A stretch of 11,083 nt of DNA, taken from a virus. Below are positions 112 to 8,276 of the stretch, piece by piece. Below the pieces are notes generated by a model that did not search any database, was not told the origin of the DNA, and worked only from the letters and a program-made list of their open reading frames with translations. Made by a program: the position numbers and the translations under genes. Every line of letters begins with the position of its first letter. The first letter of the stretch is position 1. The DNA lies in the UHGV virus genome UHGV-1793687; one strand, written 5' to 3'.

Positions 112-609
112 ATGGCAAAGCTCACAGACAAACAAGAGCTGTTTGCCCATCCGGATGATGTGTATGTCGGAGAGTGTGTGATTTATACCGGCTACATAAA
201 TAAGCGAGGGTATGGGCAGAAGCACATTTCACGAAAGCCGCACTACGCACATCGAATCGCATACTGCGAAGCTAACGGAATTTCGCTAGATAGCATCAAG
301 GACCTGGTTGTTAGGCATAAATGTGATAATCCATCATGCGTGAATCCTGACCATCTGATTATAGGTACTGTCGCTGACAATAATCGTGACAGGTCAAGGC
401 GAGGCAGAAACTCATACCCTGACCGTTCAGGTGAAAAGAACGGAATGGCGAAATTAAAAGAGTGCGATGTCATCTGCATTCGACGTGAATATGTCCGCGG
501 GAGCATTGGTAGGGGGCTTAGATCCTTATCAGAGAAATATGGCGTATCGACGACCATGATTGCTGACATCGTTAATTATAGAAATTGGAGCAACGTTTCG
601 GGGGTGTGA
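112..609 (+). CDS. HNH homing-type endonuclease (HNH_3-like), probably terminase-associated
   Basis: 165-aa ORF with ATG at 112 and GGAG about 8 nt upstream. Translation has an HNH-like core (…VRHKCDNPSCVNPDHLIIGT…NNRDR…) with conserved His/Asn/His spacing, plus a C-terminal basic helix-turn-helix-like segment. Sits directly upstream of the terminase small subunit. Confidence 0.85.
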   Translation: MAKLTDKQELFAHPDDVYVGECVIYTGYINKRGYGQKHISRKPHYAHRIAYCEANGISLDSIKDLVVRHKCDNPSCVNPDHLIIGTVADNNRDRSRRGRNSYPDRSGEKNGMAKLKECDVICIRREYVRGSIGRGLRSLSEKYGVSTTMIADIVNYRNWSNVSGV

Positions 610-1167: not shown

Positions 1168-2790
1168 ATGCCGTTACCATTCCCCTTCGATTTTAAACAT
1201 CCTGATTACCAGATGGTTTTTGAATGGCGGATGGAACGCCTACAGCGCATTCGCCAGAATCCTGAAATATTGCCTGCACTAAAACAGTTTTACCGAACCA
1301 ATCCGGCTCAGTTCATCATCGACTGGGGCATGACAACGGACCCGCGTAATATTGATTATGGCCTGCCGGTGACCATTCCGTTTTTACTCTTCCCTAAGCA
1401 GGAGGAGTGGATCCACTGGATTATGGAACGCTGGAGCAATCGGGAGAATGGTATTACCGAAAAATCCCGTGAAATGGGGCTCAGTTGGACCGCGATCGGA
1501 ATGGCATGCTCGCTTTGTCTCTTCAACAAAGAAATGGTTATCGGTTTCGGCTCCCGTAAAGAGGAATACGTCGACAGCACTGGTGACCCGAAAGCATTGT
1601 TCTGGAAGGCACGCAAGTTCGTGGAAACGCTACCTGTAGAGTTTCGCGGTTCGTGGAGCGAGAAGAAGCACGCGCCATATATGCGTGTTGAGTTTCCCGA
1701 TACTGGTGCCGTTATCAAAGGCGAGGCTGGCGACAATATCGGTCGTGGTGACCGTACCACGCTCTACCTGGTGGATGAGGCTGCATTCCTCCAGCGTCCT
1801 CTGCTGATTGATGCGGCGCTGTCGCAAACCACCCGCTGCCGTATCGACCTGAGTTCGGTTAACGGCATGGCGAACCCGTTCGCGCAGAAGCGTCACGGCG
1901 GGAAGATACCGGTATTCACATTCCACTGGCGGGATGATCCTCGCAAGGATGAAGAGTGGTATCGCAGGGAATGCGAGAAAATCGATAATCCGGTGGTGGT
2001 GGCGCAGGAGCTTGACCTGAACTACAGCGCATCTGCGGAAGGCGTCCTGATCCCGTCCGACTGGGTACAGGCTGCCGTCGACGCGCATATCAAGCTGGGC
2101 ATCCAGCCAACGGGCAAACGCCTGGGCGCGATGGACGTCGCCGACGAAGGCCGGGACAAAAACGCCTTTTCGACCCGTCACGGCTTCTTCCTGGAGAACG
2201 TGCGGGAATGGTCCGGCGTGGGCAGCGACATTTACCAGTCCGTTGAGAAGGTCTTCGGCTTTTGCGAACAGGACAACCTCGAAGAGTTTCGCTTCGACGA
2301 GGACGGTCTGGGCGCTGGCGTTCGCGGCGATGCACGCGCTATCAACGAACTGCGTAACGCTGCGCGCCGACCGTCAATACTCGCCACACCGTTTCGAGGT
2401 AGTGGCGCGGTATTTGATCCGGATGATGAAGCTGTTCGCGGGGACAACGGGCAAGCCGCCCGCCTGAACAAGGACTTCTTCGCTAACGCCAAGGCCCAGA
2501 GCTGGTGGCGTTTACGCAAGCTTTTCCAGAATACTTATCGCGCCGTGGTTGAGGGCATGGCCTACAACCCGGACGAAATCATCTCAATCAGCAGCGCCAT
2601 GGCGAGCAAAGACAAACTCATCATCGAGCTGTCGCAGCCGACCTACTCCATTAACGGCGTGGGGAAAATCGTTGTTGATAAACAGCCTGACGGCACCAAG
2701 TCGCCGAACCTCGCCGACTCGGTGATGATCAGCTACGCGCCAATGAATTCAGCCCTGAACATCTGGGAGCTGCTAGGGAGACAGGCCTGA
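1168..2790 (+). CDS. terL: Terminase large subunit
   Basis: 540-aa ORF immediately after terS. Contains a Walker-B-like hydrophobic run ending in DE ([11 protein letters not shown]) and an acidic C-terminal nuclease-like half. Its TGA stop overlaps the portal ATG (…cTGATGg…). Confidence 0.9.
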
Positions 2791-4259
2791 TGGCACGAAA
2801 CAAGCAAGCCTCTCAGCGAACGGCGCAGGCCACCGCTGATGGCTACGAGAACTTTGTCGCCCGCGTGGGGATGCAGACGCCTAACCAGCATTCAGCATCG
2901 ACCTACCGGGCGAACTTCACCAGCCGCAACCGCATGCTGGTGGAATGGTCCTATCGTTCGTCCTGGATCATCGGCGAAGCGGTCGACGCTATCCCGGATG
3001 ATATGACCCGCAAAGGCATTCGCATTACTTCGGAAATTGATGCAAAAGATCGCGGCATTCTCGAATCACAACTTGATGAGTTGCAGATCTGGGATGCGCT
3101 GAACGACGTGCTGAAATGGTCTCGCCTCTACGGCGGCGCGGTCGGCTTCATCATGATCGAGGGGCAGGCACCAATGACCCCGCTGCGGCTCGAAACCATT
3201 GGAGAAGGCAAGTTTAAGGGCATTCTCCCGCTCGACCGCTGGATGATTAACCCGGTGCTGACCCGCCGCATTAAAGAGATGGGGCCGGATCTCGGCAAAC
3301 CTGAGTTTTACGACGTGGTGACCACTGCAACGGGCATCCCGGCCTGGCGCATCCATCACAGCCGCCTGATTCGCTTCGATGGCGTCACGCTGCCATTCCA
3401 GCAGAAGATGACCGAAAACGAATGGGGAATGTCGGTTGTAGAGCGTATCTGGGATCGGCTTACTGCGTTCGACAGCGCCACTGTCGGCGCGGCTCAGCTG
3501 GTCTACAAAGCGCATCTGCGCACCTACAGCGTGGAGAAGCTGCGCGAGCTTATCGCGCTTGGAGGCCCGGCGTTCGAAGCGCTGCTGAAGAACATCGACC
3601 TGATCCGCCAGTTCCAGAGCAATGAAGGCATGACGCTTATGGACTCGCGGGATAAGTTCGAAACCCACCAGTACAGCTTTAGTGGTCTGGATGACATTCT
3701 TTCGCAGTTTGCTGAGCAGATCAGCGGTGCCGTTGGTATCCCGCTGGTACGCCTGTTCGGTCAATCCCCGAAAGGCTTCTCTACTGGTGATGCAGACCTC
3801 GCCAACTATTACGACCGGGTGAGCTCATTGCAGGAGCGCCGCTTACGGCTGCCGATGCGCCGGATACTGGACATTATGCACCGCTCGGAACTAGGTAAGC
3901 CGCTGCCGGACGATTTCACGTTTGAGTTTAACCCGCTATGGCAAATGTCTGACGTTGACCGCTCAACGGTGGCCGTAAACACCACCACTGCGATCAGCAC
4001 CGCGCTGGCTGATGGATTGATGACGCGTAAGGCGGCAATGACCGACCTGCGCGAAAACTCTGACGTCACTGGTATCGGAGCATCCATTACCGACGAGGAT
4101 ATCGAGAATGCCGAAGACGAAGCGCCGCCAGGCATCGGCGAACTTGGCGACAAACCGCCAGAGTCGCCAGGCGGAGATCCGATATCGAACGAGCCTACGG
4201 CAGATAGCGCGGGCGGTCGGGGATATCGTAAATGGGCGCTACGATGGTTCAAACGATAG
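2790..4259 (+). CDS. Portal protein (DUF1073 / HI1409-like phage portal family)
   Basis: 489-aa ORF whose start overlaps the terL stop by 1 nt. Size and position after terL fit a portal, and the N-terminal sequence resembles DUF1073-type portals as I recall them. The C-terminus is an acidic, Pro/Gly-rich, probably disordered tail. Confidence 0.8.
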   Translation: MARNKQASQRTAQATADGYENFVARVGMQTPNQHSASTYRANFTSRNRMLVEWSYRSSWIIGEAVDAIPDDMTRKGIRITSEIDAKDRGILESQLDELQIWDALNDVLKWSRLYGGAVGFIMIEGQAPMTPLRLETIGEGKFKGILPLDRWMINPVLTRRIKEMGPDLGKPEFYDVVTTATGIPAWRIHHSRLIRFDGVTLPFQQKMTENEWGMSVVERIWDRLTAFDSATVGAAQLVYKAHLRTYSVEKLRELIALGGPAFEALLKNIDLIRQFQSNEGMTLMDSRDKFETHQYSFSGLDDILSQFAEQISGAVGIPLVRLFGQSPKGFSTGDADLANYYDRVSSLQERRLRLPMRRILDIMHRSELGKPLPDDFTFEFNPLWQMSDVDRSTVAVNTTTAISTALADGLMTRKAAMTDLRENSDVTGIGASITDEDIENAEDEAPPGIGELGDKPPESPGGDPISNEPTADSAGGRGYRKWALRWFKR

Positions 4260-4881
4260 CGTCACCGAAATCATGGATGCGCTGGAGCGCTACAGCGAAA
4301 TCATCACCCCCTGGGCGACGAAGGTAGCTGAGAACTTCACCGCAGACATAGCGCGCCAGAATGAAAAGCAGTGGCGTCAACACAGCCGGAACATCAGCGC
4401 AGAGCTGCGCAACATGGTTGACCGCGCCCCGGTAGGCCAGGTGATGAAATCCATCGTCGCCGAGCAAATTAAGTACATCAAATCTCTGCCTCTTGAGGCC
4501 GCCGATCGGGTGTATGACATTCAGAACAAGGCCATCGAGGCTGTAGTAACTGGTGGCCGCGCTGAGCCATTCGCGAAAGAGATAGCTGCTTCCGGTGACG
4601 TGTCACGCTCACGAGCGAACCTTATCGCCCGGACTGAGCTTGGGCGCGCAACCGGTGCACTGGATCAGGCGCGTGCGCTGTCAATCGGCTCGAATGGTTA
4701 TATCTGGCGTACAGCCGAAGATGGCGACGTCCGGCATTCTCATCGAGAGATGGAAGGGAAGTTTGTCGAATGGGGCAAACCTCCAACGCTTGACGGCATG
4801 ACCGGTCACGCTGGCGAGCTCCCGAACTGCCGCTGTTACAAAGAGATCGTCTTCCCCAACCCTCATTCTTATCTCGCCTGA
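4108..4881 (+). CDS. Head morphogenesis protein, Phage_Mu_F / SPP1 gp7-like
   Basis: 257-aa ORF in the +1 frame relative to the portal. The C-terminal region (…ARTELGRATGALDQARALSIGSNGYIWRTAEDGDVRHSHREMEGKFVEW…) matches the Mu-F minor head protein motif. ATG 4108 has GAGGAT about 8 nt upstream but overlaps the portal 3' end by 152 nt; an alternative in-frame ATG at 4273 has a weak RBS. Confidence 0.75.
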   Translation: MPKTKRRQASANLATNRQSRQAEIRYRTSLRQIARAVGDIVNGRYDGSNDSVTEIMDALERYSEIITPWATKVAENFTADIARQNEKQWRQHSRNISAELRNMVDRAPVGQVMKSIVAEQIKYIKSLPLEAADRVYDIQNKAIEAVVTGGRAEPFAKEIAASGDVSRSRANLIARTELGRATGALDQARALSIGSNGYIWRTAEDGDVRHSHREMEGKFVEWGKPPTLDGMTGHAGELPNCRCYKEIVFPNPHSYLA

Positions 4882-4895
4882 ATCGCAGGTAAACC

Positions 4896-6116
4896 ATGAA
4901 ATATTTTTTCAATACCCGACTGGGGGAAACCCGCTATCAGCTTGCTGACGGCTCGTTGCTGTGCAGAGACGTGCCGATAGGACGAACAGGTAAGCAGCTC
5001 TATGGTGCTGATGACCTGCCAAAACTGAAACCCGACAAGCTCGGTGAGATAGTCGTCACGCGCTCTCCTGAGCAGGTATTCCATCCCGCCACACTTGCCT
5101 CATTCGAAGGAATGAGTATCACGGTGTTGCATCCCGAGGATGAAAACGGGGATGTGCGGCTGGTGAATCCAGAGAACTGGAAAGAGCTTGCTGTCGGGCA
5201 TCTTCAGAATGTGCGGCGCGGGACTGGTGACCAGTCTGATTTGATGCTGGCTGACCTTATCGTCAAAGACGAAAACGCTATTCAGCTTATCGAAGATGGC
5301 CTGCGTGAAGTGTCGTGCGGCTATGACGCGGAGTACGAGCAGACCGAGCCCGGAAAAGCCGAGCAGGTCGATATTACCGGAAACCATGTGGCTCTTGTCC
5401 CTAAAGGCAGAGCCGGAAATCGTTGTGCAATTGGAGACAGAGACACAATGGCAAATCAAAAGAAAAGCTGGTGGACCCGCATGCGCACGGCCATCAAAAC
5501 GGGTGACGCTGACACCATGAACGAACTGCTGGACTCTGCGCCAGCGGCGGTAACGGGTGATGAAGGGGATCTGCCGAGCGGCGTTAACCTCAACATTAAC
5601 CTTTCACCGCAGCAACCATTGCCGGACAAAAAGCCGGAAATGGGCGGAGAGCCAACCGGCGACGGCGAGGACGATATCAAAACCTTGCTCAAAGCCCTGC
5701 TGGCTAAGCTGGAAGGAAATGCGACGGGCGATAACGACAATAAGCCTGACGATAATCCGACCGGTGACGGCGAGGACGATGAAGAGGAAACCACGATTAC
5801 TGGTGACTCAGCCTGGCGTGCCGAGGTTATCGTCCCAGGTATCGATCTGAGCCGTAAGGTGAAACCGACCGCGTTCAAACGTGATGTGCTGGCTTCCGCT
5901 GACAAAACGCTGGTTCGCCAGATAGTCGGCGATGCGGATATCCGCAAATTGCCGAAACAATCGGTCAACATGGCGTTTAATGCCGTGTCAGAGATTGCCA
6001 AAGGGCGAAACACCCGCAGCACCACGGGCGATGCACAACGTCCAAATATGGGCATGACCAGCATCGCTTCCCTGAACAAACAAAACGCCGACTTCTGGTC
6101 TAACCGCAAAGGATAA
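4896..6116 (+). CDS. Putative capsid scaffold / maturation protease-like protein (DUF2213-like) with acidic repetitive C-terminal region
   Basis: 406-aa ORF with ATG 4896 and AGGT upstream. The N-terminal ~190 aa is globular; the C-terminal half is low-complexity and acidic, with repeated TGD and PTGDGEDD motifs. It sits between the Mu-F-like gene and the capsid gene, where a scaffold or protease is expected. Confidence 0.7.
   Translation: MKYFFNTRLGETRYQLADGSLLCRDVPIGRTGKQLYGADDLPKLKPDKLGEIVVTRSPEQVFHPATLASFEGMSITVLHPEDENGDVRLVNPENWKELAVGHLQNVRRGTGDQSDLMLADLIVKDENAIQLIEDGLREVSCGYDAEYEQTEPGKAEQVDITGNHVALVPKGRAGNRCAIGDRDTMANQKKSWWTRMRTAIKTGDADTMNELLDSAPAAVTGDEGDLPSGVNLNINLSPQQPLPDKKPEMGGEPTGDGEDDIKTLLKALLAKLEGNATGDNDNKPDDNPTGDGEDDEEETTITGDSAWRAEVIVPGIDLSRKVKPTAFKRDVLASADKTLVRQIVGDADIRKLPKQSVNMAFNAVSEIAKGRNTRSTTGDAQRPNMGMTSIASLNKQNADFWSNRKG
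5652..5780 (+). repeat. Imperfect direct repeat inside the scaffold-like CDS (two ~24-nt copies encoding PTGDGEDD)
   Basis: ccaaccggcgacggcgaggacgat at 5652-5675 and ccgaccggtgacggcgaggacgat at 5757-5780 match at 22 of 24 positions and are 105 nt apart, in frame. Confidence 0.6.
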
Positions 6117-6120
6117 TCCA

Positions 6121-6624
6121 ATGACTGCATATCTGTACCGGATGCCTGTTGGCATTGCCGGGGCTATCTCTCGCCCGCAGGACTTAACCGTCGAACCGGT
6201 GGTCCTTAAATCCGATAACGCCTTTGCTGCCTATGGGCTGGCTGGTAAATACGATGATGACGGTTTTTTCGTGCCGCTGGAGGACGGTGACACCGCCGAC
6301 AAGGTGAAGGGGATCTACGTTCGTCCGTATCCGACCACATCGCAGCCAGACATGGTTCGCCAGGTGGGGACGGATAAGAATTTCCCGGGCGACGCCATGA
6401 AACGTGGCTACATGACCGTTAACCTTGGATCTGGCTTCGATGCCAGCACCATCAAAAAAGGTGATCCTGTCTACGTGGTCGTTTCGCTCGATTCAACCAT
6501 TGACGTGCCGCTGGGCGGCTTCATGTCCACGTCCGTCAGTGGCAAAAACGTGGCGCTGACCAACGCCGAATTCACAGGGGCCGGTGACGCTAACGGCAAT
6601 GCAGAAATCTCCTGGAAGATTTAA
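6121..6624 (+). CDS. Hypothetical phage structural protein (position suggests head decoration or accessory capsid protein)
   Basis: 167-aa ORF with ATG 6121 and AAAGGA 7 nt upstream. It is tightly coupled between the scaffold-like gene and the major capsid gene. I do not recognise a family from the sequence. Confidence 0.65.
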   Translation: MTAYLYRMPVGIAGAISRPQDLTVEPVVLKSDNAFAAYGLAGKYDDDGFFVPLEDGDTADKVKGIYVRPYPTTSQPDMVRQVGTDKNFPGDAMKRGYMTVNLGSGFDASTIKKGDPVYVVVSLDSTIDVPLGGFMSTSVSGKNVALTNAEFTGAGDANGNAEISWKI

Positions 6625-6635
6625 GGAACAGACGA

Positions 6636-7577
6636 ATGATTACTTTTGATCAGGCAACCGTTGATAGCTCTGGTGCCTTTCTCATCGGGGAGCTGGAGCG
6701 ACTCGACCAGACGCTGAACCTGCCGCTGGTGGGTTACACCTGGACCCGCGATATTCAGTTGCGTGAAGACGTTTCTATCGCAGATGACATTTCCAGCTGG
6801 ACTAACACCAGCTTTGGCGCTGCGGGTACTGGCGCAAATCCGAACGGTAAAAACTGGGTAGGCAAAGACTCAACCGCTATTGCTGGCGTGAACGTGGATA
6901 TCGGCAAATCCGGTAACCCGCTGAACCTGTGGGGGATGGAACTTGGCTGGACCGTTGTAGAGCTGGCAGCAGCTCAGCAGGTAGGTCGCCCGATTGACAC
7001 CCAGAAGTACGACGGGATGCAGCTCAAATGGCAGATGGACAACGACGAGCAGGTGTATGTTGGCGATTCCGCATTAAACCTGAAAGGCCTTGTTACCCTG
7101 AACGGTGTTCCTGTCAACAACGCTGCCAAAACGTGGGCAACCTCAACACCGGACGAAATCCGCGCAAGCATTAACCAGGTGCTGTCTGATGCGTGGGCCG
7201 CTTCTGGTTACTCTGTGGTTCCGCGTGATTTGCTGATCCCGCCAGAGCAGTTTGCTCTGTTGTCCAGCATCATCGTTTCATCTGCGGGTAACCAGTCCCT
7301 GTTGACGTACCTTCAGACTAACACCATCAGCTATCACCAGAACGGTGTTCCGCTGAATATCCGCGCGGTTAAATGGCTGAAAGGCCGTGGTGTGGGGAAT
7401 AAGGATCGCATGGTTGCGTACACCAACGATAAAAAATACGTCCGCTATCCGCTGGTGCCGTTGCAGAGCGTTCCTATCCAGTATCGCGGTCTGTACCAGA
7501 TTGCGACCTACTACGGCAAGCTCGGTGCGGTTGAGCCAGTGTACAAAGAAACCCTGTCCTACGTGGACGGTATCTGA
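6636..7577 (+). CDS. Major capsid protein (DUF2184-like, HK97-fold predicted)
   Basis: 313-aa ORF with ATG 6636 and AAGGA overlapping the upstream stop. Size, position after the scaffold-like gene, and a strong hairpin immediately downstream fit a highly expressed capsid gene. The family call is from memory of DUF2184-type capsid proteins. Confidence 0.7.
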   Translation: MITFDQATVDSSGAFLIGELERLDQTLNLPLVGYTWTRDIQLREDVSIADDISSWTNTSFGAAGTGANPNGKNWVGKDSTAIAGVNVDIGKSGNPLNLWGMELGWTVVELAAAQQVGRPIDTQKYDGMQLKWQMDNDEQVYVGDSALNLKGLVTLNGVPVNNAAKTWATSTPDEIRASINQVLSDAWAASGYSVVPRDLLIPPEQFALLSSIIVSSAGNQSLLTYLQTNTISYHQNGVPLNIRAVKWLKGRGVGNKDRMVAYTNDKKYVRYPLVPLQSVPIQYRGLYQIATYYGKLGAVEPVYKETLSYVDGI

Positions 7578-7618: not shown

Positions 7619-7903
7619 ATGGCAAAAGAAAAGCTGGTTACCATCCATGTTCACACCCCGTTTACGCTGACGCTCGGCGATCAGTCAAAACAGGAGTTTG
7701 GCCGGGGACGGCATAACGTGCCGGAAGAGGTCGCGTCTCACTGGTTCACCCAGGCGCACTCTGAGCTTTCCGAAAGCGTGATTAGCGACACCAATGATCT
7801 GCAACCCGTTATCGACAGCCTGCAAGCGCAGATTGCTGCCGCCCAGACTGGCGGTAATGGGGCGAAAGATGCCAAAGAATCAAAGTCTGCCAGCGGTAAG
7901 TGA
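7619..7903 (+). CDS. Hypothetical small phage protein (94 aa)
   Basis: ATG 7619 with AAGGAA about 8 nt upstream, directly after the hairpin. The C-terminus is low-complexity and Lys/Ala-rich (…[25 protein letters not shown]). No family recognised. Confidence 0.55.
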
Positions 7904-8276
7904 TTTTCGCCGCGACTTCCCGCAGTTTGCTGACCCTGCCAAATATCCCGAAGCGCAAATCCAGTTTCGTCTGAATCTGGCCGATGTGCTGCTGAGCGAA
8001 AACGTCACCGGCAAAGAGTTGTTTCCGTATTTTGCCGAGTTGTTCGTGGCTCACTACATGACGCTATGGGCGGCAGATAGCCGGGCAATGCTGGTTGGCG
8101 GCCCGGGCGGTTCAACCAATGGTGTTCAATCCTCCAAGTCCGTTGACAAGGTAAGCGTCAGCTATGACACCAGCGCGACGCTAAACCCTGACGCAGGCTT
8201 CTGGAATAACACCCGATATGGCGCTGAATTTTATCAGCTGATCACGATGTTCGGTGCGGGCGGTCGCCAGCTATGA
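7869..8276 (+). CDS. Hypothetical phage protein, DUF4054-like (putative head–tail connector component)
   Basis: The track ORF runs 7794-8276. In-frame ATGs at 7857 and 7869 both overlap the 3' end of the previous ORF. The …[55 protein letters not shown]… region resembles DUF4054 proteins found next to capsid genes. Start is uncertain. Confidence 0.6.

What the first reader, a model, noticed from the sequence alone, without database searches (positions are those of the whole stretch)
5460..5830. Acidic TGD / PTGDGEDD repeat domain at the C-terminus of the scaffold-like protein
The C-terminal half of the 4896-6116 protein is strongly acidic and low-complexity, with a near-perfect 24-nt direct repeat (5652-5675 and 5757-5780) flanking a short predicted helix (IKTLLKALLAKLEG). 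Such domains often act as scaffolding or delivery segments that are cleaved or expelled on capsid maturation. Repeats of this kind are also hotspots for length variation between related phages.
Basis: partly seen in the sequence, partly recalled or inferred. Interest (0 to 1): 0.45.

Follow-up and report, generated by a model that had tools for sequence, protein, structure and literature searches.

The report
Self-cleavage sites in phage protease-scaffold linker
The acidic repeat region is the flexible middle of a phage head-assembly protein that joins a capsid-maturation protease to a scaffold, and its recurring Thr-Gly-Asp motif is most likely where that protease cuts; this suggests a cleavage rule for a very large uncharacterised protein family (DUF2213).

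Summary
The 24-nt repeat (5652-5675 / 5757-5780) matches at 22/24 positions, is in frame, both differences are synonymous, and it encodes PTGDGEDD twice. No codon shuffle exceeded 20/24. It sits in an acidic, low-confidence linker around a short amphipathic helix. The segment is central, not C-terminal: the last 106 residues are basic and folded.

TGD occurs 8 times (0.25 expected). Family-wide, T-x-D is the strongest of all 400 X-x-Z patterns in scaffold halves (z = 37) and marks a fixed position at the capsid protein N-terminus (61/63). Other clades use K-x-D, F-x-D or A-x-D, each matching an experimentally observed capsid N-terminal boundary (TLS Edman; XM1, Pa193 and E217 cryo-EM). I infer cleavage after Asp, with a clade-specific P3 residue.

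Indels concentrate in this segment (26 of 37 events). A nested scaffold-only start at Met185 is likely.

The parts
4896..6116 (+). Gene for the 406-aa protease-scaffold protein (DUF2213 family). It lies between the MuF-like head morphogenesis gene and the cement and major capsid genes.
   Evidence: ORF. Pfam PF09979, E 4.8e-42, residues 16-181. phrog_1961 matches the full length; phrog_530 and phrog_12864 are annotated 'head maturation protease'. Neighbouring genes identified.
4896..5438 (+). N-terminal domain (residues 1-181) with the capsid-maturation (assemblin / T4 gp21) protease fold. Candidate catalytic residues are H79, S140 and H164.
5433..5450 (+). Possible internal in-frame start: GGAG (5433-5436), 11 nt of spacer, then ATG (5448-5450, Met185). 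It would give a 222-aa scaffold-only product (5448-6116).
   Evidence: 120 of 132 family members have a Met within 14 aa after invariant D181, against 27% expected. 30 of 33 distinct DNA contexts have an SD-like element of at least 4 nt upstream of that ATG, and 17 of 33 are in the top 15% of positions in their own gene. BcepNY3 annotates a nested gene13' inside its homologue.
5586..5795 (+). Acidic, largely disordered linker (residues 231-300, net charge -13). It is the indel hotspot.
   Evidence: Charge. Low pLDDT. 26 of 37 distinct indel events among 118 close homologues fall here. In 62 distant representatives the whole linker between the protease and the C-terminal domain, which contains the equivalent of this segment, is acidic in 100% of cases and 106-206 aa long.
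5652..5675 (+). Repeat copy 1, encoding P253-TGDGEDD-260: a TGD site plus an acidic turn immediately before the helix.
   Evidence: Aligns with the Pa193 gp24 acidic turn EMSGE.
5757..5780 (+). Repeat copy 2, encoding P288-TGDGEDD-295.
   Evidence: The duplication in P0002 equals the unit between the two copies.
5649..5723 (+). Acidic turn plus amphipathic helix (residues 252-276, EPTGDGEDDIKTLLKALLAKLEGNA). It is homologous to Pa193 gp24 301-326, the turn and 'interior helix' that form a pentameric plug under the capsid five-fold vertex.
   Evidence: Local alignment score 51; reached by 0 of 5000 target shuffles and 2 of 5000 query shuffles; it lands exactly on gp24 301-326. Structure described in PMC11456595. 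105 of 118 close homologues keep the helix core LLKA[LI] and the other 13 carry variant helix sequences, despite flanking indels.
5499..5507 (+). T202-G-D204, predicted cleavage site between helices 192-202 and 205-213.
5553..5561 (+). T220-G-D222, predicted cleavage site.
5655..5663 (+). T254-G-D256, predicted cleavage site, inside repeat copy 1.
5724..5732 (+). T277-G-D279, predicted cleavage site just after the helix. Together with D256 it would release the 23-aa peptide GEDDIKTLLKALLAKLEGNATGD.
5760..5768 (+). T289-G-D291, predicted cleavage site, inside repeat copy 2.
5799..5807 (+). T302-G-D304, predicted cleavage site at the start of the C-terminal domain. D304 is at least 90% conserved in the family.
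6024..6032 (+). T377-G-D379, predicted cleavage site after the long helix 354-377.
5223..5231 (+). T110-G-D112, a TGD inside the folded protease domain (loop between strands 101-108 and 116-123). Whether it is used, for example for self-inactivation, is unknown.
5796..6113 (+). Basic C-terminal helical domain (residues 301-406, net charge +8), conserved in the family. Probably the coat- or portal-binding or oligomerising part of the scaffold.
6657..6665 (+). T8-V9-D10 of the major capsid protein (gene 6636-7577). Predicted maturation cleavage site, giving mature N-terminus S11 (SSGAFLIGELERLD...).
   Evidence: T-x-D sits at this fixed position in 61 of 63 capsid proteins and the Asp is invariant. 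T-x-D density is 9.2 per 100 aa before the first conserved helix and 0.7 after it.

Best explanation
The 4896-6116 gene encodes a two-part head-assembly protein.

Protease part. Residues 1-181 are a capsid-maturation serine protease of the T4 gp21 / herpesvirus assemblin fold. The predicted catalytic residues are H79, S140 and H164.

Scaffold part. The rest of the protein is an internal scaffold, and it is probably also made on its own from an internal start at Met185. The flagged segment is the scaffold's flexible acidic linker, which does two things:
- It carries an acidic turn plus a short amphipathic helix (residues 252-276). This is homologous to the piece of Pa193 gp24 that forms a five-helix plug against the inner face of capsid pentons, so it is a coat-binding and pentamer-organising element.
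- It is studded with T-G-D motifs, which are the protease's own recognition sites (P3 Thr, P1 Asp, cut after Asp).

Proposed sequence of events. After the procapsid assembles, the protease cuts the scaffold at these sites into pieces of roughly 12-75 residues. It also trims the capsid protein N-terminus at T-V-D10|S11. The interior is thereby cleared for DNA, while the helix peptide may stay bound under the vertices.

The DNA repeat. The 24-nt repeat is two copies of 'site plus acidic turn' (PTGDGEDD). As a direct repeat in an unstructured spacer, it allows unequal recombination, which is why length varies here.

Shown: the fold, the family membership, the homology to gp24, the motif statistics, the capsid N-terminal motif and the indel hotspot.
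Inferred: catalytic activity, cleavage at TGD, the fate of the fragments and the use of the internal start.

For: Scaffold. The family profile hits PDB 9b40_G, Pa193 gp24 'scaffolding protein', at E 3e-12; hhalign probability is 97.8%. The turn+helix alignment lands on gp24 301-326 and is reached by at most 2 of 5000 shuffles. The structure and contacts of that fragment are described in PMC11456595.

Motif in this protein. TGD occurs 8 times against 0.25 expected.

Motif across the family:
- T.D is the top outlier among all 400 X.Z patterns in the scaffold halves of 137 representatives: 732 observed, 205 expected, z 36.9. S.D (ratio 0.95), T.E (0.65) and S.E (0.84) are not enriched.
- Density is 2.3-3.0 per 100 aa in the scaffold part against 0.3-0.7 in the protease domain, cement, portal, MuF-like and other ORFs. 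The flanks prefer K or P at P4 and A or S at P1'.

Substrate. 61 of 63 capsid proteins have T-x-D at one fixed N-terminal position with an invariant Asp. Longer N-terminal extensions add a further T-R-D upstream of the conserved T-F-D and T-[IV]-D.

Co-variation with physical data:
- TLS: the Edman N-terminus ASDMGIW (PMC11447400) follows K30-N31-D32, and K.D is the top scaffold pattern, 10 against 2.7 expected.
- XM1: the first 30 capsid residues are absent from the map (PMC10457771). The sequence reads F28-K29-D30|E31, and F.D is the top scaffold pattern, 9 against 1.1.
- Pa193 and E217: the capsid protein is visible from residue 66. The sequence reads A62-M63-D64|S65, and A.D occurs 8 times against 3.2 expected.
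- Blind test on 15 phages: 11 have their scaffold's top X.D pattern in the capsid N-terminus against 5.8 expected. All 9 with a strong motif do.

Analogy. T4 gp21, the best structural match, also recognises a P3-x-acidic motif (LPE; catalytic H85/S140; PMC12991175).

Hotspot. Nested start.
Against: - There are no proteolysis, mass-spectrometry or N-terminal sequence data for this phage or its close relatives.
- The protease domain has no detectable sequence similarity to T4 gp21 and no Pfam peptidase hit. Foldseek against the PDB found nothing significant.
- In Pa193 the aligned acidic turn is intact inside the fragment seen in mature virions, so not every such turn is cut. The TGD at 254-256 lies in that turn.
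- T110-G-D112 lies inside the folded protease domain.
- Conservation of T-x-D at the capsid N-terminus could be structural. A weak alignment with the Pa193 capsid protein (17% identity) places the Pa193 boundary opposite D24 rather than D10.
- Four of 15 clades (K198, pAh6-C, PhiXhv-18, RHph_Y3_43) show no strong X.D motif and no capsid match.
- The SD-like element in this window is only GGAG, with a rather long 11-nt spacer, and GGAG here also encodes the conserved Gly-Asp.
Confidence: 0.68

Rival explanations
1. T-x-D motifs are not cleavage sites. They are coat-binding acidic turns or helix-start motifs of the scaffold, and several copies give multivalent, reversible electrostatic binding to the basic inner capsid surface. 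The scaffold leaves intact or is cut elsewhere.
For: The TGD at 254-256 aligns with the Pa193 gp24 turn E-M-S-G-E, whose Ser303 and Glu301 contact the capsid protein and which is uncleaved in the mature virion. T202-G-D and T302-G-D immediately precede predicted helices 205-213 and 304-312.
Against: Helix capping or a generic acidic turn would tolerate Ser for Thr and Glu for Asp, yet S.D, T.E and S.E are not enriched (ratios 0.95, 0.65, 0.84) while T.D is enriched 3.6-fold. Other TGDs follow helices (377) or lie in disordered stretches (220, 277, 289). The same motif sits at the capsid protein's own N-terminus. In TLS the clade's motif (K-x-D) directly precedes the Edman-determined mature N-terminus.
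Confidence: 0.15
2. The segment is a functionless low-complexity spacer. The TGD copies and the 24-nt repeat are leftovers of slippage or duplication in a tolerant linker and have no sequence-specific role.
For: The region is the indel hotspot and tolerates 39-40 aa duplications and 12-16 aa deletions. Its identity to the query among close homologues is the lowest of the four regions, 0.82 against 0.84-0.88. pLDDT is low.
Against: T-x-D enrichment persists in relatives of 33-59% identity, where the surrounding sequence is unrelated. D304 of T302-G-D304 is at least 90% conserved. The helix is kept in homologues despite flanking indels. The turn+helix is significantly similar to the structurally resolved part of Pa193 gp24. 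Motif identity co-varies with capsid boundaries across clades.
Confidence: 0.07
3. The DUF2213 domain is a catalytically dead, protease-derived structural module, so the protein is only a scaffold, as the Pa193 depositors named it. Capsid and scaffold processing would be done by another enzyme, either a host protease or another phage protein such as the MuF-like product.
For: The structural papers on relatives do not call it a protease: Pa193 names it 'scaffolding protein', and the XM1 authors proposed a different gene, gp46. There is no sequence match to peptidase families. The MuF-like neighbour hits a PHROG labelled 'head maturation protease' (phrog_595, E 1e-19).
Against: His, Ser and His are invariant across 132 diverse sequences and are retained in Pa193, TLS and Rogue1, which is not expected for a dead enzyme. 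No other protease-fold gene lies in the head module. The cleavage motif co-varies with the DUF2213 protein's own sequence, as expected if enzyme and substrate are the same polypeptide.
Confidence: 0.1

Closest known systems
Pseudomonas phage Pa193 gp24 'putative scaffolding protein' (PDB 9B40; PMC11456595)
   Same: Same Pfam family, DUF2213 (2.4e-33). Same gene position, upstream of the cement and capsid genes. Same layout: N-terminal domain, then acidic linker, then helix. The acidic turn plus amphipathic helix aligns with gp24 301-326, with 4 of the 6 pentamer-core positions hydrophobic and both salt-bridge acids conserved.
   Different: Only distantly related, and only the N-domain aligns by profile. 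Pa193 has no T-x-D at all and A-x-D is enriched instead. The window protein has a proline-rich stretch where Pa193 has the 'exterior helix'. The Pa193 authors did not recognise a protease domain and left cleavage open.
T4 gp21 prohead protease (PDB 5JBL) and herpesvirus assemblins (MEROPS S77 and S21; my recollection of the MEROPS codes)
   Different: No detectable sequence similarity. Inferred P1 is Asp rather than Glu (T4) or Ala (herpesviruses; from my own knowledge). The enzyme is fused to its scaffold substrate. P3 differs between clades (T, K, F, A).
Protease-scaffold fusions with nested scaffold genes: lambda C/Nu3, Mu I/Z, P2 gpO (from established phage biology, my own knowledge)
   Same: An N-terminal protease and a C-terminal scaffold in one reading frame. 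A probable internal in-frame start giving scaffold-only protein. Gene position between the portal/MuF genes and the capsid gene, as in Mu.
   Different: Different protease sequence family. No experimental evidence here for the nested product. The dense array of a single tripeptide motif in the linker is not a described feature of those proteins, as far as I know.
P22 gp8 scaffolding protein coat-binding helix-turn-helix (PDB 2GP8)
   Same: A short helical element with a charged turn that binds the inner capsid surface electrostatically, as compared by the Pa193 authors.
   Different: P22 scaffold has a basic turn, is not cleaved and is recycled (my own knowledge). Here the turn is acidic, the protein carries its own protease, and no sequence or fold match to P22 gp8 was found.

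Membership tests
Pfam DUF2213 (PF09979) | Match to the family HMM above the curated gathering score | tested here: met
   144.2 bits against a cut-off of 22, E 4.8e-42, residues 16-181 covering profile positions 4-166 of 167.
Capsid-maturation serine proteases of the assemblin / T4 gp21 fold | Assemblin-type beta-rich fold | tested here: met
Capsid-maturation serine proteases of the assemblin / T4 gp21 fold | Conserved catalytic Ser and His (plus a third residue) at structurally equivalent positions | tested here: inconclusive
   H79, S140 and H164 are invariant in 132 sequences. S140 and H164 lie on neighbouring hairpin strands. Equivalence with gp21 H85/S140 could not be checked: no coordinates were available and no sequence alignment was obtained.
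Capsid-maturation serine proteases of the assemblin / T4 gp21 fold | Proteolytic processing of scaffold and capsid protein | not testable with these tools
   Only indirect evidence: motif enrichment and agreement with the TLS Edman N-terminus and the XM1, Pa193 and E217 map boundaries.
Capsid-maturation serine proteases of the assemblin / T4 gp21 fold | Encoded in the head module next to the scaffold and capsid genes | tested here: met
   Gene order is TerS, TerL, portal, MuF-like, this gene, cement, major capsid.
Pa193 gp24-type internal scaffold | Sequence homology to gp24 | tested here: met
   The A1 profile hits 9b40_G at E 3.1e-12. hhalign probability 97.8%, covering the N-domain only.
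Pa193 gp24-type internal scaffold | Acidic turn plus amphipathic helix that forms the penton plug | tested here: met
   Residues 252-276 align to gp24 301-326 with score 51, reached by at most 2 of 5000 shuffles. The upstream 'exterior helix' has no clear counterpart.
Pa193 gp24-type internal scaffold | Physical presence inside the procapsid or capsid, bound at the five-fold vertices | not testable with these tools
   Needs cryo-EM or proteomics of this phage.
Nested protease/scaffold gene pairs (lambda C/Nu3 type) | Conserved internal in-frame start codon with a ribosome-binding site at the domain boundary | tested here: inconclusive
   A Met within 14 aa of D181 in 120 of 132 sequences, against 27% expected. 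An SD-like element of at least 4 nt in 30 of 33 contexts, with 17 of 33 in the top 15% of their own gene. BcepNY3 annotates gene13'. In this window the element is only GGAG with an 11-nt spacer, and there are no expression data.

The most novel reading that the evidence does not exclude
DUF2213 proteins are a very large family (6,424 representative clusters at 50% identity with E <= 0.001) of self-processing protease-scaffold fusions. Their protease cuts strictly after Asp, and its P3 preference (Thr, Lys, Phe, Ala...) has co-evolved, clade by clade, with cleavage-site arrays in its own scaffold half and with the capsid protein propeptide boundary. One excised product, the acidic turn plus helix, stays in the virion as a pentameric plug under each vertex. 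This would assign function and specificity to an uncharacterised Pfam family. It would identify the 'missing' protease and scaffold of XM1, recast Pa193 gp24 as a protease-scaffold, and correct the cleavage site inferred for TLS.
Probability: 0.5. Interest if true: 0.65.

Novelty: new variant of a known kind. Interest (0 to 1): 0.55.

Why it matters
Protease-scaffold fusions and scaffold degradation are textbook phage biology, so the kind of element is known.

What is not described in the literature I could search is any function or specificity for the DUF2213 family. It is present in several hundred sequenced phages, including the therapeutic Pbunaviruses and T1-like phages, and in about 6% of complete E. 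coli genomes.

A simple rule, cut after Asp of a clade-specific X-x-Asp motif, would have several uses:
- Annotators could predict the mature capsid N-terminus and the scaffold fragments directly from sequence.
- It would explain unassigned or missing density in several recent cryo-EM structures (Pa193, E217, XM1).
- It would give a tractable system for studying how a protease and its substrate sites co-evolve within one polypeptide.
- It may matter for bacterial defences that sense prohead protease activity, such as CBASS (PMC12991175).

Tried and rejected
- phmmer of the protein, and of its C-terminal 176 aa, against PDB sequences: only designed helical repeats at E above 0.01.
- hhalign of the family profile against T4 gp21: no similarity, probability 0.2%. 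The catalytic residues therefore could not be mapped by sequence.
- Pfam at E <= 10 on each half, and NCBIfam: nothing beyond DUF2213.
- tblastn with a 44-aa Pa193 linker peptide: no match, probably because of the low-complexity filter. Solved by querying with the N-domain instead.
- Helix N-cap explanation of T-x-D: rejected as the main cause because S.D, T.E and S.E are not enriched and the TGDs flank helices on both sides or lie in coil.
- A-x-E as the T1-like motif, suggested by the TLS paper's 'AYE' inference: not enriched in Rogue1. Locating the Edman sequence in the TLS protein showed the true preceding triplet is K-N-D.
- Conservation of the Pa193 capsid contact residues (Y291, P292, K293, R295) in the window's capsid protein: the alignment is too weak (17% identity, with an insertion) to say.
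- Papers on E217, Pam3 and T1 structures: no direct processing data beyond 'first 65 residues not visible' for E217. PMC11239291 is not held.
- The 224-aa ORF on the minus strand (5456-6130) was not pursued. The plus frame carries the Pfam and PHROG matches, and both repeat differences are synonymous in it.
Full report
**Context.** The window is the head and proximal tail module of a temperate enterobacterial myovirus. The gene order is HNH endonuclease (112-609), small terminase (560-1165), large terminase (1168-2790), portal (2790-4259, PF06381), MuF-like head morphogenesis protein (4108-4881), the gene in question (4896-6116, PF09979 DUF2213), cement/decoration protein (6121-6624, PF23982/PF22758), major capsid protein (6636-7577, PF09950), then DUF4054 and tail genes. 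The gene is 86-94% identical in DNA to genes of Citrobacter phage Omnitron, four vB_EcoM phages, Salmonella phage SEN34 and Hafnia phage yong1. It occurs as a chromosomal prophage gene in 339 of 5426 complete E. coli genomes.

**The observation.**
The copies match at 22/24 positions, are 105 nt apart and in frame, and both differences are synonymous. Each copy encodes PTGDGEDD.
- Codon shuffles of the whole gene (300) or of the acidic segment alone (1000) never gave more than 20/24.
- Residues 186-300 have net charge -15. AlphaFold2 gives this stretch low confidence, apart from a helix at 260-272.
- Two corrections are needed. First, the acidic part is central, and the last 106 residues are basic (+8) and fold into a confidently predicted helical domain. 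Second, the dominant signal is the tripeptide TGD: 8 copies against 0.25 expected, with 0 of 20000 shuffles reaching 8, and at most one copy in any other ORF of the window.

**What the protein is.**
- I built an alignment of 132 diverse relatives (33-59% identity) from a search that found 6424 representative clusters with E <= 0.001.
- Predicted viral structures that match are annotated prohead serine protease, capsid maturation protease, peptidase U9 or scaffolding protein.
- H79, S140 and H164 are invariant, and S140 and H164 sit on adjacent strands of a hairpin. That fits a Ser/His(/His) active site.
- I could not superpose coordinates, and there is no sequence similarity to gp21, so the catalytic assignment is an inference.

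**The scaffold half and the helix.**
- The family profile hits one solved structure, 9b40 chain G, the 'scaffolding protein' gp24 of Pseudomonas phage Pa193 (E 3e-12; hhalign 97.8%). All of Pa193 gp24, XM1 gp52 and the Rogue1 homologue pass the Pfam DUF2213 threshold.
- In Pa193, cryo-EM resolved only residues 286-326 of gp24. This is a helix-turn-helix whose acidic turn (EMSGE, 301-305) salt-bridges to the capsid A-domain. Its 'interior helix' forms a pentameric bundle that plugs each five-fold vertex from inside, in the mature virion (PMC11456595).
- Our EPTGDGE-DDIKTLLKALLAKLEGNA (252-276) aligns with gp24 EMSGEGEVAELISQVKAILARLEGTA (301-326). The score is 51 against shuffle means of 25-26, reached by 0 of 5000 and 2 of 5000 shuffles.
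- Both salt-bridge acids and four of the six pentamer-core positions are conserved.
- So the 'short predicted helix' flanked by the repeat is the counterpart of the only structurally visualised part of this scaffold family. Repeat copy 1 encodes the turn that faces the capsid.

**The TGD motif.**
- TGD itself is clade-specific, but T-x-D is family-wide: 7.2 per protein against 2.3 expected, and 86 of 137 representatives have shuffle p <= 0.01.
- In an unbiased scan of all 400 X-x-Z patterns in the scaffold halves, T.D is by far the strongest: 732 observed, 205 expected, z 36.9. S.D, T.E and S.E are at or below expectation. This argues against a generic helix-cap or compositional origin.
- Density is 2.3-3.0 per 100 aa in scaffold halves, against 0.3-0.7 in protease domains, cement, portal, MuF-like and all other ORFs of 80 related loci. 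The flanks prefer K or P at P4 and A or S at P1'.
- In the model the TGDs lie between helices or in low-confidence stretches, so they would be accessible to a protease.

**The capsid protein carries the same motif.**
- In 63 capsid proteins from those loci, T-x-D density is 9.2 per 100 aa ahead of the first conserved helix (FL[IV]GELERLD) and 0.7 after it.
- 61 of 63 have T-x-D at one fixed position, followed by S, G, A or N. The Asp is invariant.
- Distant members carry a 10-40 residue N-terminal extension with a further T-R-D site upstream of the conserved T-F-D and T-[IV]-D sites (...RARTRD-xx-MTFD-xx-TID|STGAFL). The window's capsid protein starts MITFDQATVD|SSGAFL.

**Co-variation with physical data in other clades.**
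1. TLS (T1-like). Edman sequencing gave the mature capsid N-terminus ASDMGIW (PMC11447400). In the TLS protein this string starts at residue 33, directly after K30-N31-D32. K.D is the top over-represented pattern in the scaffold part of the TLS DUF2213 protein: 10 against 2.7 expected, p below 3e-4. Rogue1 behaves the same way, with K.D at 10 against 3.1 and capsid ...DKAD|AAGIW. The paper's inferred 'AYE' site does not fit its own Edman sequence.
2. XM1. The first 30 capsid residues are absent from the 3.2 A map (PMC10457771). The sequence reads ...T-F28-K29-D30|E31. In XM1 gp52, F.D is the top pattern, 9 against 1.1 expected. The XM1 authors stated that the scaffold gene was unidentified and guessed another gene for the protease.
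3. Pa193 and E217. The capsid protein is visible only from residue 66. The sequence reads ...A62-M63-D64|S65. gp24 has no T.D, but A.D occurs 8 times against 3.2 expected, p 0.009. BT-1011 (ISIAMD|AGITQPVTTPS) and BcepNY3 (EYAMD|AADL) share this site and have A.D as their top scaffold pattern.
4. Blind test on 15 phages from different clades. The scaffold's top X.D pattern occurs in the capsid N-terminal 70 residues in 11, against 5.8 expected. It occurs in all 9 whose scaffold motif is strongly enriched (joint chance about 3e-4, or about 1.6e-3 for seven independent clades). Four clades show no clear signal.

From this I infer cleavage after Asp (P1), with a clade-specific P3 residue. This is analogous to the P3-x-Glu rule of T4 gp21, which recognises an LPE motif and uses catalytic H85/S140 (PMC12991175).

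**Consequences for this protein.** If every scaffold TGD is used, the products are 1-204, 205-222, 223-256, 257-279 (the helix peptide GEDDIKTLLKALLAKLEGNATGD), 280-291, 292-304, 305-379 and 380-406. The acidic linker would then be reduced to 12-34 residue peptides, small enough to leave a procapsid. In Pa193 the visible fragment 286-326 is itself bracketed by D284 and D331, which is compatible with excision of the plug peptide. This last step is speculative.

**Length variation.**
- Close homologues range from 390 to 449 aa.
- Of 37 distinct indel events among 118 of them, 26 lie in residues 231-300 (17% of the length), mostly at 275-294. One lies in the protease domain and is a start-site artefact.
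- P0002 carries a 39-aa duplication equal to the unit between the two PTGDGEDD copies, giving three sites and two helices. P0001 has a different 40-aa duplication. P0009, P0016 and P0115 have 12-16 aa deletions between TGD-coding stretches.
- The helix itself is retained: 105 of 118 homologues keep the LLKA[LI] core and the other 13 have variant helix sequences.
- In 62 distant representatives the linker is 106-206 aa long and always acidic (-7 to -39), and the C-terminal domain is always net positive.

**A probable nested gene.**
- Met185 sits at the domain boundary, preceded by GGAG (5433-5436) with 11 nt of spacer.
- 120 of 132 family members have a Met within 14 residues after invariant D181 (27% expected), at drifting positions.
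- 30 of 33 distinct DNA contexts have an SD-like element upstream of that ATG, and 17 rank in the top 15% of positions in their own gene.
- The BcepNY3 record annotates exactly such a nested gene13'.
- This resembles lambda C/Nu3 and Mu I/Z, and it would supply scaffold in excess over protease.

**Comparison with what is known, and novelty.**
- The kind of system, a capsid maturation protease fused to a scaffold that it degrades, is well known. PHROG-derived annotations already call many DUF2213 genes 'head maturation protease'.
- Pfam still lists the family as uncharacterised. NCBIfam has no model.
- The seven papers that mention DUF2213 say nothing about function.
- None of my searches found a description of its cleavage specificity.
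- The structural papers on Pa193, E217 and XM1 did not connect the protein to a protease.
- I therefore rate this a new variant of a known kind.

**Verdict.** The flagged segment is real and non-random, and it is functionally interpretable as the cleavable, coat-contacting linker of a protease-scaffold protein. The main uncertainty is that cleavage at TGD is inferred from comparative evidence and has not been observed for this phage.

Noticed in passing
window 5433-5450 (and 5448-6116): Likely internal in-frame start (GGAG, 11 nt, ATG Met185) giving a 222-aa scaffold-only protein. A Met at this boundary is conserved in 120 of 132 relatives, and SD-like sequences precede it in 30 of 33 contexts. 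BcepNY3 annotates the equivalent nested gene13'.
   Followed up: partly
L085 (phage TLS) 15072-16061, residues 30-39: The published Edman N-terminus of the TLS capsid protein (ASDMGIW) lies at residue 33, right after K-N-D. It does not lie after the 'AYE' triplet (residues 51-53) from which the paper inferred removal of 45 residues. The published cleavage site therefore appears to be misplaced.
   Followed up: yes
L084 (Vibrio phage XM1) 3832-5289: XM1 gp52, unannotated and directly upstream of the decoration gene gp53, is a DUF2213 protein (E 1.8e-12) with an extra N-terminal extension of about 120 aa. It is the obvious candidate for the scaffold and protease that the XM1 structure paper said was unidentified (that paper proposed gp46).
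   Followed up: partly
window 6636-6710 (capsid protein residues 1-25): The capsid N-terminus has tandem T-F-D5 and T-V-D10, then the highly conserved helix GAFLIGELERLD24. A weak alignment with Pa193 puts the Pa193 visible N-terminus opposite D24|Q25, so the mature N-terminus could be S11 or Q25.
   Followed up: partly
proteins P0004 and P0012 (576 aa): Two database entries fuse the DUF2213 protein to the downstream cement protein (Pfam PF09979 + PF22758/PF23982). In the window the two genes are separated by a stop codon plus 4 nt and are in different frames, so these are probably frameshift or assembly errors. A programmed fusion was not excluded.
   Followed up: no
window 4108-4881 vs 2790-4259, and 7794-8276 vs 7619-7903: As listed from the first possible start codon, the MuF-like ORF overlaps the portal gene by 152 nt and the DUF4054 ORF overlaps the preceding ORF by 110 nt. 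The real starts are probably further downstream; the PHROG and Pfam matches begin at residues 5 and 38 respectively.
   Followed up: no
window 3783-3791 (portal residue 332, FSTGDADL): The portal protein carries one TGD, in a context (S-T-G-D-A-D) very like the scaffold site K-T-G-D-A-D-T at 202. I did not examine whether the portal is also processed.
   Followed up: no
window 112-609: An HNH endonuclease gene lies immediately upstream of, and overlaps, the small terminase gene. This arrangement is typical of HNH-assisted cos-type packaging modules.
   Followed up: no
window 5456-6130, minus strand: A 224-aa antisense ORF spans the acidic region. It is Ser/Pro-rich, as expected for the reverse complement of GA-rich acidic codons, and has no support. 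It was treated as spurious.
   Followed up: no
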